A stretch of DNA of 64,000 nucleotides. Origin: Eledone cirrhosa. Its lineage: Eukaryota. The stretch spans positions 90,644,001-90,708,000 of the forward strand of contig OZ024746.1 of the NCBI GenBank assembly GCA_964016885.1, written 5' to 3'. The notes beneath the pieces were generated by a model. That model saw only the letters and a program-made list of their open reading frames with translations, was not told the DNA's origin and made no database searches. Both the position numbers and the translations under genes were made by a program. Positions 4,103 through 57,167 of this stretch are shown here, in pieces. Each line of letters begins with the position of its first letter. The first letter of the stretch is position 1.

Positions 4103-4442
4103 CATCATCATCATCATTTTACGTCCGCTTTTCCCTGCTTGCAAGGGTGGGACGGGAACTGATTCTGGATTGATTTATACAGCTGGATGCCCTTCCTAAC
4201 ACCAACCTCATTTTACAGTGAGTGCTGGGTGCTTTTTTTTGCCATGGCACCTCCACGACCACTTTGCTGTGGAATGATATGGACCCCAGTCCCTATCATC
4301 TCATTTCTACAGCTGAGTAAACTGGAGCAATGTGAAATAAAGTGTCTTGCTCAAGGAAACAACACATCACCCGGTCTGAGAATTGAACTCACAACCTTTC
4401 AATTGCAAGTCCAATACTCTAACCACTAAGCCATATGCCTTC
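4103..4442 (-). mobile_element. SINE family B, full length
   Basis: Reverse complement of head TGGCTTAGTGGTTAGAG and of the RTE tail. Confidence 0.9.
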
Positions 4443-5351: not shown

Positions 5352-5730
5352 TCTGTTACAGATGTTATATCTTTGATATTGTATTGTCTCACTGTCTCAC
5401 TATCAACAGGTGGACAGCTGGAATTTTTATGAGCTGCAAATTATAAGAGACATTTGAAAATGGCTGCTTGTGTGTCTGTGAATATATATTTTATAGTTAT
5501 GAAGCCATATACAAAAATTACAGCCTGCACGCCTCACAAAACAACACACAAGAAAGTTCTATAATTTCATTATAAAAGAAAACATACTGTGTCTCCCACA
5601 ACTTCAGTATACTTCATATAAAAAATAGCTCATAAATCTATGACAATATATAATATATATGTGTGTGTGTGTGTGTGCGTGCATGCATATATACACACAT
5701 ATATGTGAATGTATGTATGTGTATAGATGC

Positions 5731-5767
<37 letters not shown>

Positions 5768-5770
<3 letters not shown>

Positions 5771-6005
5771 GCATCTTCCAACAGACATGGTCGCATTCTT
5801 TTAAGGGTATGTCAATATTTGTTTATAAAACTGATCTATATTATATTTTATCTGATGAAAGCGCACCATAATTTGCTTTGGTGTCCTTGAAATATGTATA
5901 ATGAAATAAATATGGTTTTATAAATATAGTTTCCATTTATTAATATATTGTATTTTTACTCCAAAAATTTGTTGAGTGCTTTATATCAGTTATAAAAATA
6001 TATTG
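5768..6005 (+). mobile_element. Hammerhead-bearing short element next to (TA)n (Penelope-like LTR/retrozyme-like, family P1)
   Basis: Starts at the end of a (TA)n tract; homologous to 55690-55915 and 54935-55170; contains a hammerhead motif. Confidence 0.7.
5844..5908 (+). ncRNA. Minimal type-I hammerhead ribozyme motif
   Basis: Stem I TATTTTAT/ATGAAATA; CTGATGA 5852-5858; stem II GCACCA/TGGTGT; GAAA 5889-5892; short stem III; AUA cleavage triplet 5898-5900. Confidence 0.75.
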
Positions 6006-21478: not shown

Positions 21479-21627
21479 CATATATATATATATATATATA
21501 TGTAGGAGGTGAGTTTTATTGTAGTACAATAAAGCAATGCAGATATCGGATAAGAAGCACTCTACAGTTTGTAGGACTGGAGTATACATAATATATAAGA
21601 TCAAAAGATGGTTAAAAGAGTTCCATG

Positions 21628-21698
21628 TATTTTATTATGCGCATTTCAAAAACAAATATCATCATGCAATAACATTTGTGTTTTCATCAGATAAAATA
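21628..21698 (-). ncRNA. Minimal type-I hammerhead ribozyme motif
   Basis: TATTTTAT-CTGATGA-stem II-GAAA-TGCGC-ATA-ATAAAATA; perfect 8-bp stem I and palindromic stem III ATGCGCAT. Confidence 0.85.
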
Positions 21699-21804
21699 GG
21701 AAGACATGATATGAAGGTTAGAAAACACTTGTGAATAGTGCAGATATGTTGATTTAAAACTGCACTATTCACAAGTGTTTTTTAACCTTCATATCATGTC
21801 TTCC

Positions 21805-21875
21805 TATTTTATCTGATGAAAACACAAATGTTATTGCATGATGATATTTGTTTTTGAAATGTGCATAATAAAATA
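21805..21875 (+). ncRNA. Minimal type-I hammerhead ribozyme motif (mirror copy)
   Basis: CTGATGA 21813-21819, GAAA 21856-21859, ATA 21865-21867, stem I TATTTTAT/ATAAAATA. Confidence 0.8.
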
Positions 21876-21905
21876 CATGGAACACTTTTAACCATCTTTT
21901 GATCT

Positions 21906-21977
<72 letters not shown>

Positions 21978-37852: not shown

Positions 37853-38163
37853 TGGAGGCACATGGCTTAGTGGTTAGAGCATTGGGCTTGCAATCGAAAG
37901 GTTGTGAGTTCAATTCTCAGACCGGGTGATGTGTTGTTTCCTTGAGCAAGACACTTTATTTCACATTGCTCCAGTTCACTCAGCTGTAGAAATGCAAAGT
38001 CGTCGTGGAGGTGCCACGGCAAAAAAGCACCCAGCACTCACTGTAAATGAGGTTGGTGTTAGGAAGGGCATCCAGCTGTAGAAATCAAGCCAGAATCAGT
38101 TCCCGTCCCACCCTTGCAAGCAGGGAAAAGCGGACGTAAAATGATGATGATGATGATGATGAT
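37853..38163 (+). mobile_element. SINE family B, full length
   Basis: tRNA head, CORE-like body, RTE tail, (GAT)n. Confidence 0.9.
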
Positions 38164-45125: not shown

Positions 45126-45156
<31 letters not shown>

Positions 45157-45158
<2 letters not shown>

Positions 45159-45285
45159 TTAATATAGAAATGTCTTCTACAGGACTAGAACTGTTTCATT
45201 CGGAGGAAATCATCAGAAAGGCTTTCTGATGATTTCCTCCGAATGAAACAGTTCTAGTCCTGTAGAAGCCATTTCTATATTAAAT
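45157..45285. repeat. Fold-back palindrome, 64-bp arms, 1-nt spacer, with hammerhead core
   Basis: Centre 45221, one mismatch seen; CTGATGA 45226-45232, TTC..GAA stem II, GAAAC 45245-45249, GTC 45257-45259; stem I incomplete. Confidence 0.9.
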
Positions 45286-52233: not shown

Positions 52234-52575
52234 GGAAAAAAATGAAATGAAATTTCATTTCCCACTATTAGTACGGCTGTTTCTTAAATATAAGTATGTA
52301 CACGTACATACATATATGTATACAGACGTACAGTAGTATGTATATATATATAAACACACGCACACATATATATATGTACATATGGATTCACCGAACATTT
52401 ATTATAATGCTCCGTGTGTTTGTAAACAAACATCCCGTATAAAGCTGTAGTGTCCAGCAACCATCGTTGCTCGTTTGTTCAACACTGACAAAGGAACGCT
52501 GTACTAGTTTCAAGCTTATTAGCTATCGTCAGCAACATATACCTTCCTGCCAGATTGTTGAACGTATATACTTAC

Positions 52576-53333: not shown

Positions 53334-53482
53334 GGATATATATATATATATGGATATATATATATATATCCATATATATATATATATATCCATATATATA
53401 TATATATATATATATATATGGATATATATATATATCATATATATATATATATATCCATATATATATATATATATATATATAT

Positions 53483-53566
<84 letters not shown>

Positions 53567-53588
53567 ATATATATATATATATATATAT

Positions 53589-53638
<50 letters not shown>

Positions 53639-53728
53639 ATATATATATATATATATCCATATATATATATATATATATATATCCATATATATATATATAT
53701 ATCCATATATATATGTATATATATATAT

Positions 53729-53788
<60 letters not shown>

Positions 53789-53984
53789 CCATATATATAT
53801 ATATCCATATATATATATATCCATATATATATATATATCCATATATATATATATCCATATATATATATATCCATATATATATATATCCATATATATATAT
53901 ATCCATATATATATATATCCATATATATATATATCCATATATATATATATCCATATATATATATATATCCATATATATATATAT

Positions 53985-54018
<34 letters not shown>

Positions 54019-54072
54019 ATATATATATATATATATATATCCATATATATATATATATATATATATATATCC

Positions 54073-54136
<64 letters not shown>

Positions 54137-54148
54137 CCATATATATAT

Positions 54149-54226
<78 letters not shown>

Positions 54227-54282
54227 CCATATATATATCCATATATATATATATATATATATATATATCCATATATATATCC

Positions 54283-54318
<36 letters not shown>

Positions 54319-54470
54319 CCATACATATATCCATATATATATATATATATATATATATCCATATATATATCCATACATATATCCATATATATATATATAT
54401 ATATATATCCATATATATATATCCATATATATATCCATATATATATATATATATATATCCATATATATAT

Positions 54471-54506
<36 letters not shown>

Positions 54507-54646
54507 ATATATATATATATATATATATATCCATATATATATCCATATATATATATATATATATATATATCCATATATATATCCATATATATATATATAT
54601 ATATATATATATCCATATATATATCCATATATATATATATATATAT

Positions 54647-54694
<48 letters not shown>

Positions 54695-54740
54695 ATATAT
54701 ATATCCATATATATATCCATATATATATCCATATATATAT

Positions 54741-54777
<37 letters not shown>

Positions 54778-54786
54778 TATATATAT

Positions 54787-54829
<43 letters not shown>

Positions 54830-54838
54830 TATATATAT

Positions 54839-54910
<72 letters not shown>

Positions 54911-54933
54911 ATATATATATCCATATATATATA
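53293..54933. repeat. (TA)n array punctuated by CC
   Basis: Seen directly in sequence. Confidence 0.95.
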
Positions 54934-54973
54934 ATATTAAATAAATGGAAAACTATATTTATAAAACCATATT

Positions 54974-55039
54974 TATTTCATTATATATATTTCGGGGATA
55001 TCATATTAACAATATGCTATGCCTTCATCAGACAAAATA
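54974..55039 (-). ncRNA. Minimal type-I hammerhead motif (family P1, insert 54935-55195)
   Basis: TATTTTGT-CTGATGA-AGGCATAGCATATTG..AATATGATATCCCC-GAAA-TATAT-ATA-ATGAAATA. Confidence 0.75.
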
Positions 55040-55190
55040 CAATATAAACAGTTTTATAGATAAATATATTCGACATACCGTAATAAACATCAACTTCATT
55101 TGAAGAGGTTTACTCCAAATATTTGTCGAGTGCTTTTATATCAGTTATAAATATTTACTAGTTGTAACCCAACAATTTTAAATATAACTT

Positions 55191-55261
<71 letters not shown>

Positions 55262-55539
55262 ATATATATATATATGCATATATATATATATATATCCATA
55301 TATATATATATATATCCATATATATATATATATATCCATATATATATATATATATCCATATATATATATATATATCCATATATATATATATATATCCATA
55401 TATATATATATATATCCATATATATATATATATATCCATATATATATATATATATCCATATATATATATATATATCCATATATATATATATGGATATACA
55501 ATATTAAATAAATGGAAACTATATCTATAAAACCATATT

Positions 55540-55605
55540 TATTTCATTATATATATTTCAGGGATAACATATTAACAATATGCTATGCCTTCCTCAGACA
55601 AAATA
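55540..55605 (-). ncRNA. Minimal type-I hammerhead motif (mirror copy)
   Basis: Reverse complement of 55749-55814. Confidence 0.7.
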
Positions 55606-55748
55606 CAATATAAACAGTTTTATAGATAAATAGATTCGACATACCGTAACAACATCTACTTGCATTTGAGAAGGTTGAACCTTCTCAAATGCAAGTAGAT
55701 GTTGTTACGGTATGTCGAATCTATTTATCTATAAAACTGTTTATATTG

Positions 55749-55814
55749 TATTTTGTCTGAGGAAGGCATAGCATATTGTTAATATGTTATCCCTGAAATA
55801 TATATAATGAAATA
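55749..55814 (+). ncRNA. Minimal type-I hammerhead motif
   Basis: CTGAGGA 55757-55763, stem II ATAGCATATT/AATATGTTAT, GAAA 55795-55798, ATA 55804-55806, stem I TATTTTGT/ATGAAATA. Confidence 0.75.
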
Positions 55815-55941
55815 AATATGGTTTTATAGATATAGTTTCCATTTATTTAATATTGTAAATATACTCCAAATATTTGTCGAGTGCTTTTATATCAGTTATA
55901 AATATTTACTAGTTGTAACACAACAACTTAAATATAACTTT

Positions 55942-57167
<1,226 letters not shown>

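What the first reader, a model, noticed from the sequence alone, without database searches (positions are those of the whole stretch)
54935..55940. Family P1 in three structural states, with sequence change that preserves the ribozyme fold
The same element appears as a simple copy (5768-6005), as an inverted 5' part joined to a forward 3' tail (54935-55195), and as an apparently perfect 180-bp-arm palindrome with a 1-nt loop (55497-55857). Between the 5.8-kb and 55-kb copies the stem II sequence differs substantially (GCACCA/TGGTGT versus ATAGCATATT/AATATGTTAT) yet still pairs, while the core and the downstream ~100 bp are conserved. This suggests selection on structure.
Basis: partly seen in the sequence, partly recalled or inferred. 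Interest (0 to 1): 0.7.

Follow-up and report, generated by a model that had tools for sequence, protein, structure and literature searches.

The report
Penelope retrotransposon stubs with hammerhead motif
The three copies are short end-pieces of a very abundant Penelope-type jumping gene carrying a predicted self-cutting RNA motif; their mirror-image layouts are a known insertion pattern, likely made when both cut DNA strands copy the element's RNA from two fixed start points, and the motif's stem is kept between subfamilies, though not strictly.

Summary
Observation confirmed. 'P1' is the terminal repeat plus tail of a Hydra-clade Penelope-like retrotransposon (PLE): about 24,000 copies of the motif lie in this genome, and where the tail continues it runs into a 737-aa ORF with Hydra motifs and a telomerase-like predicted fold. 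The three window copies belong to three subfamilies and are best read as one insertion reaction with different truncations. Stem II of the type I hammerhead motif covaries, but through few independent events; one pair is broken in 45 of 95 copies, and selection would act on source elements, not on these stubs. Inverted copies, one-sided tails and hammerhead covariation are all published for PLEs. Added here: 40 of 41 head-to-head pairs carry exactly one tail, either arm can be longer (11 vs 9), both 3' ends stop a few bases before a twice-repeated hairpin motif about 90 nt apart, and 5' ends pile up at an initiator-like word. This favours priming of both target strands on sense RNA (inferred). 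The scan noted the same pattern before on other DNA of this and other genomes. No RNA data. New member of a known kind; interest 0.35.

The parts
55497..55677 (-). Left arm of palindrome: tailless copy, 3' end at site 1, 5' end about 130 nt upstream of the predicted cut
55678..55945 (+). Right arm: tailed copy of the youngest subfamily (99% to the best genome hits)
55744..55818 (+). Type I hammerhead motif: stem I, core 55757-55763, stem II 55764-55794, GAAA 55795-55798, 2-bp stem III with palindromic loop, predicted cut after 55806
   Evidence: sequence
55536..55610 (-). Mirror copy of the hammerhead motif in the left arm
55858..55945 (+). Tail (about 88-92 nt) between end site 1 and end site 2
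55864..55884 (+). Hairpin motif 1, 6 nt after end site 1; a second copy follows end site 2 only in ORF-linked elements
54935..55113 (-). Inverted tailless copy of a second subfamily, core at 55025-55031, stem II closing pair A-C and a G-A mismatch
55111..55195 (+). Forward tail-only arm joined to the inverted copy by a 3-nt microhomology (55111-55113)
5775..6005 (+). Solo tailed copy of a third subfamily, core 5852-5858, predicted cut after 5900, last ~35 nt of tail missing
55196..55496 (.). (TA)n microsatellite target between the two 55-kb insertions
   Evidence: 127 of 133 sampled copies end in a TA run

Best explanation
The three copies are non-coding stubs of the terminal repeat and tail of a Hydra-clade Penelope-like retrotransposon inserted in (TA)n, likely written when the element's enzyme primes both cut target strands on sense RNA, one at each of two fixed sites about 90 nt apart, and the two truncated copies join head to head. 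Shown: family identity, linkage to the ORF, two fixed 3' ends, one tail per inverted pair, no fixed order of arm length, 5' pile-up, twin hairpin motif. Inferred: the hairpins position the enzyme, the pile-up is the RNA's 5' end (promoter in the repeat), both strands are primed. The palindrome is the case where both copies ran to about the RNA start; the 54.9-kb copy is the case where the tailed arm stopped after ~85 nt; the solo copy is a one-armed outcome. The hammerhead fold was kept among active source elements; genomic stubs decay. Odds: identity 0.95, two-strand priming about 0.65.
For: Tail runs into the same ORF start in all three stem II lineages; intact 737-aa ORF in a 4,011-bp tandem unit with RWR, DKT, YRDD, CxCx5C, CxxC and CxH motifs as listed for Hydra PLEs; model pLDDT 90.8, best fold match telomerase RT. 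40 of 41 head-to-head pairs have one tail, p 4e-11 against 0.5; tailed arm longer in 11, tailless in 9 of 20 asymmetric pairs. 25 of 51 validated 5' ends lie 129-146 nt upstream of the cut site, 0 at 147-182, at a YCAC(T/A) word in subfamilies with unlike upstream sequence. Hairpin 1 pattern 20,507 matches, hairpin 2/ORF-start pattern 117. In vitro, a Poseidon PLE nicks and extends both strands and starts at two internal sites that bound the tail (PMC11167929).
Against: No RNA, cleavage or priming data for this family. Rfam finds no hammerhead; the active fold is 4.5-6.8 kcal/mol above the minimum-energy fold and RNAalifold prefers a rod that buries GAAA. Pfam finds no family in the ORF. Fold-back self-priming in either order would also give one tail per pair. 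Arms sometimes share variants absent from the nearest sampled relatives, which fits one template or later conversion as well. The hairpin's inner stem is not conserved, only its 3-4 bp base and sequence. The sample is the first 100 matches on one contig, not random, and only 51 of 133 ends passed validation.
Confidence: 0.8

Rival explanations
1. Fold-back self-priming: one cDNA folds at its 3' end and is copied back, giving the second arm (related to the self-priming proposed in PMC3846280).
For: Perfectly identical arms in the window; shared rare variants in several pairs; several centres fall on short native palindromes.
Against: A fixed order predicts that one arm type is always the longer: observed 11 vs 9. 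The tailless arm ends at the same fixed site as solo tailless copies. Two pairs (L136, L056) have arms with stem II of different subfamilies.
Confidence: 0.25
2. P1 is an independent non-autonomous retrozyme or foldback element spreading by its own ribozyme-made circle, with selection on each copy's fold.
For: Stubs outnumber ORF starts about 200 to 1; retrozymes are proposed PLE derivatives (bioRxiv 10.64898/2026.07.22.740005).
Against: No short tandem monomers seen among 74 loci; 5' ends vary and many arms continue into the 3' UTR and ORF for kilobases; ends are not at the cut site; in the palindrome a read-through RNA folds as a 179-bp duplex that locks the motif.
Confidence: 0.04
3. The motif is kept for protein binding or promoter function and does not cleave; stem II covariation reflects a generic hairpin.
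For: Active fold is not the minimum-energy fold; stem II mismatches in large recent subfamilies; copies read through the cut site; PLE hammerheads are weak or protein-assisted and dispensable in vitro.
Against: Only N7 varies in the core, with alternatives at 13, 12 and 5 of 74 loci against at most 3 loci for any other core allele; the one common stem III change keeps the self-complementary loop by a G-U pair: the hammerhead signature.
Confidence: 0.2
4. The 54.9-kb copy is a deletion product of the neighbouring palindrome, or the palindrome is an assembly artefact.
For: Both are cut near the same point and lie 300 bp apart.
Against: They sit in different subfamilies (93% identity); the shared point is a genome-wide pile-up; like structures recur with different centres.
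Confidence: 0.03

Closest known systems
Hydra clade of C-terminal-endonuclease PLEs, e.g. Hydra-1_Obim, Penelope-13_HM (PMC8557442)
   Same: RWx, DKT, CxCx5C, CxxC/CxH motifs, no CCHH, (TA)n target, hammerhead near the 3' end, inverted 5'-truncated copy.
   Different: By eye a different family from Hydra-1_Obim (other ORF and hammerhead sequence); 4.0-kb unit against <3 kb; long stem II; tail about 90 nt against 30-40; tens of thousands of stubs.
Poseidon PAc of Anolis (PMC11167929)
   Same: Two fixed end sites bounding a tail near the repeat-ORF junction, AT-rich target.
   Different: Here both sites lie upstream of the ORF start, each just before a copy of one hairpin motif; genomic inference only.
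PLE minimal hammerheads (PMC4209133)
   Same: Type I, long helix II, tiny palindromic helix III, many subfamilies with compensatory changes, pairs on opposite strands 100-700 bp apart.
   Different: First stem II pair is A-U or A-C rather than the usual G-C; AUA cut triplet; AU-rich stem I.
Adineta vaga Penelope inverted repeats (PMC3846280)
   Same: Head-to-head palindromes, one-sided tail, initiator-like TCACT in the repeat.
   Different: That paper leans to self-priming on an antisense template; the data here favour sense RNA and two primed strands.
Metazoan non-LTR retrozymes
   Same: Type I hammerhead in a short non-coding repeat.
   Different: No short tandem monomers; continuous with an autonomous ORF.

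Membership tests
EN+ Penelope-like element | Single ORF with telomerase-like RT | tested here: met
   737-aa ORF, YRDD; best Foldseek hit TERT 3du5, E 1.2e-9; Pfam blank
EN+ Penelope-like element | C-terminal GIY-YIG endonuclease | tested here: inconclusive
   IVY..YVG with R, H, E, N aligns by eye with Hydra rows of the supplement; Pfam GIY-YIG only weakly in one homologue, E 0.012, below cut-off; domain not fold-searched alone
EN+ Penelope-like element | Terminal repeats from tandem or partial tandem layout, inverted truncated copy, one-sided tail | tested here: met
Hydra clade | RWK-like, DKT, CxCx5C, CxxC and CxH, no CCHH | tested here: met
   read from the ORF against section 11 of PMC8557442; RWR in place of RWK
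Hydra clade | (TA)n insertion preference | tested here: met
   127 of 133 copies
Hydra clade | Phylogenetic placement among reference PLEs | not testable with these tools
   reference sequences could be read in the supplement but not loaded
Type I hammerhead ribozyme | Core CUGANGA, GAAA, NUH around three helices | tested here: met
   96.1% of cells paired over 23 pairs, 61 sequence types; core alleles
Type I hammerhead ribozyme | Match to Rfam hammerhead models | tested here: not met
Type I hammerhead ribozyme | Self-cleavage | not testable with these tools
   no assay; no RNA run listed
Non-LTR retrozyme | Short tandem monomers, no linked ORF | tested here: not met

The most novel reading that the evidence does not exclude
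The stubs record the PLE insertion mechanism: an enzyme dimer grips two copies of one RNA hairpin in the 5' leader, primes both target strands about 6 nt before each hairpin, and runs to the capped RNA start, so the tail length equals the hairpin spacing (about 90 nt here) and every inverted insertion carries exactly one tail.
Probability: 0.45. Interest if true: 0.6.

Novelty: new member of a known kind. Interest (0 to 1): 0.35.

Why it matters
How PLEs make head-to-head inversions and one-sided tails, and which RNA strand they copy, is left open in the papers read (PMC3846280, PMC8557442, PMC11167929). This family offers about 24,000 natural products and intact source ORFs, and gives sharp predictions: two hairpins set two start sites, and the RNA start sets the palindrome centre.

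Tried and rejected
Rfam at gathering and E-value thresholds: no hammerhead. Pfam: nothing for the family ORF; PDB by single sequence: nothing meaningful; by profile only weak RT hits, best E 0.0056. DNA search with the 54.9-kb arm returned no candidates, a filter effect. The protein-library search was run with the L034 ORF, which proved to be another PLE family (about 40% identical) separated from P1 by a TA run; its hits served only as alignment depth. A long stem III register and a distal C-G/U-A covariation were considered and dropped: the subfamily majority breaks the latter. A-to-G excess among shared arm variants was not seen (5 of 54). A splice acceptor at the pile-up was rejected: no conserved AG. 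No PLE ORF lies in the window. One search timed out. Literature searches for octopus/Penelope/hammerhead, twin priming and hairpin/dimer listed no paper on this family or on a twin-hairpin model; Repbase and Dfam could not be searched, so the family may be catalogued.

Full report
Observation. The palindrome is exact: 180-bp arms at 55497-55676 and 55678-55857 around one G; the inverted-plus-tail copy at 54935-55195 and the solo copy near 5.8 kb are homologous as described. The central G is the complement of the next native base, so the two arms are simply cut 1-2 nt apart. The 5.8-kb copy starts at 5775 and lacks the last ~35 nt of the tail.

Identity. The best 40 scored hits of the 55-kb arm and of the 5.8-kb copy are 98-100% identical to their own query. 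A core-plus-flank pattern has 24,068 exact matches and a pattern leaving the core free 23,996, controls 0. In long loci the repeat frames an ORF: inverted copy, repeat with tail, ORF, repeat without tail. A tandem array has a 4,011-bp period and two intact 737-aa ORFs. In 30 loci fetched of 117 matches to the ORF-start pattern, stem II types of all three window lineages precede the same ORF start. The ORF carries RWR, DKT, YRDD, CxCx5C, CxxC and CxH and lacks CCHH, the set given for the Hydra clade (PMC8557442, section 11, passages and parts of the supplement read). Its model (pLDDT 90.8) best matches telomerase RT. Pfam is blank. Hydra-1_Obim in that supplement has a different ORF and hammerhead by eye.

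Hammerhead. The register is type I: stem I, CUGANGA, a 9-13 bp stem II with a C-C mismatch, GAAA, a 2-bp stem III with self-complementary loop, predicted cut after AUA (55806; 5900; 54982 on minus). On 61 distinct types (62 types from 119 copies in 74 loci, plus the three window copies, leaving out two insertion-bearing types and two identical to window copies), 96.1% of cells pair, covariation 0.147 against 0.107 in shuffles (0 of 500) and at most 0.105 in slid registers; the measures that count pairs or types did not beat shuffles (303 and 454 of 500). On a tree of 95 copies built without stem II, the double changes are few: pairs 2 and 6 change on the branch to the 5.8-kb lineage, pair 5 steps A-U, G-U, G-C; pair 8 is unpaired in 45 of 95 and is restored as G-U in the palindrome's young subfamily; the closing pair is A-C in 27 of 95. 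In the core only N7 has recurrent alleles, and the common stem III change keeps self-pairing. Against: no Rfam match, active fold above the minimum, alternative rod by RNAalifold. Large sets of PLE hammerhead families with compensatory changes, long helix II, palindromic helix III and opposite-strand pairs are published (PMC4209133, parts 1-2 of 4 read). So selection on structure is supported among source elements, loosely, and is expected.

Three states. From the first 100 matches I fetched 74 loci holding 133 copies. Copies end at one of two fixed 3' sites, followed by a TA run in 127 of 133. Of 41 head-to-head pairs, 40 carry exactly one tail (a first pass that missed some anchors gave 39 of 42 with the window pair). 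Of 20 pairs with a callable longer arm, it was the tailed one in 11 and the tailless in 9. 5' ends pile up: 37 of 133 raw estimates, and 25 of the 51 ends that passed validation, lie 129-146 nt upstream of the cut; none at 147-182 among the validated. The upstream edge is a YCAC(T/A) word in subfamilies with unlike upstream DNA. An initiator-like TCACT is described in a rotifer PLE repeat (PMC3846280, passages and discussion read) and the Penelope promoter lies in the repeat (PMC2377424, passages read). Each 3' site precedes a copy of one hairpin motif with conserved base and variable loop; the last matching base is mostly 3-6 nt before hairpin 1 (49 of 59 tailless copies) and 4 nt before hairpin 2 (13 of 18 measurable tailed copies), lower bounds because of TA microhomology. 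Spacing of the hairpins (90 nt) equals the tail length (88-92 nt). Hairpin 2 is about 175-fold rarer than hairpin 1, as expected if copying starts upstream of it.

Mechanism. A Poseidon PLE cuts and extends both strands, starts at two internal sites that bound the tail, is predicted to be a dimer and does not need its hammerhead in vitro (PMC11167929, parts 1-2 of 4 read). Applied here (inference): the two target ends prime at sites 1 and 2 of sense RNA, both copies run toward the 5' end, stop at or before it, and join head to head. The palindrome, the inverted-plus-tail copy (3-nt microhomology junction, with like cases at L168, L139, L161) and the solo copy are outcomes of one reaction. Fold-back priming is not excluded. 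Arm comparison is inconclusive: several pairs share variants unseen in near relatives, two pairs have arms of different subfamilies.

Novelty. Inverted truncated copies and one-sided tails are standard for PLEs. The family seems not to be described in the papers searched, but repeat databases were unavailable. The twin-hairpin, one-tail and RNA-start readings came from my; earlier scan notes on other loci reach like readings and are not independent support. Verdict: real feature, new member of a known kind, with a testable mechanistic lead; interest 0.35.

Noticed in passing
window 21589-21914: A second head-to-head palindrome with a different hammerhead motif on each arm (cores at 21690 minus and 21813 plus) in TA repeats; probably another PLE family.
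   Followed up: no
window 45155-45285: Short palindrome folded next to a hammerhead core on both strands (45216 minus, 45226 plus), one arm with a tail-like extension.
   Followed up: no
window about 52490-52545, minus: Single hammerhead-like motif resembling the Hydra hammerheads listed in the supplement of PMC8557442.
   Followed up: no
window 4376-4433 and 37863-37920: tRNA-like Rfam matches near threshold, probably heads of a tRNA-derived SINE (inference).
   Followed up: no
L034:3603-6044 and L111:9129-9863: Another PLE family (814-aa open ORF, about 40% identical) with a similar hairpin motif just upstream of its start codon.
   Followed up: partly
L136:4770-5120; L056: Symmetric palindromes whose arms carry stem II versions of two different subfamilies: two templates or later conversion.
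   Followed up: partly
window 53400-55500 and 55946-56100: The TA arrays are punctuated by CC/GG units that resemble the last bases of the tail and switch orientation beside the palindrome.
   Followed up: no
window 5728-5775: A 7-nt inverted repeat brackets the TA run directly before the 5.8-kb copy.
   Followed up: no
L201: Full head-to-tail tandem of at least two intact 4,011-bp units; about 1.3 kb of low-complexity 3' UTR explains the unusual unit length.
   Followed up: partly
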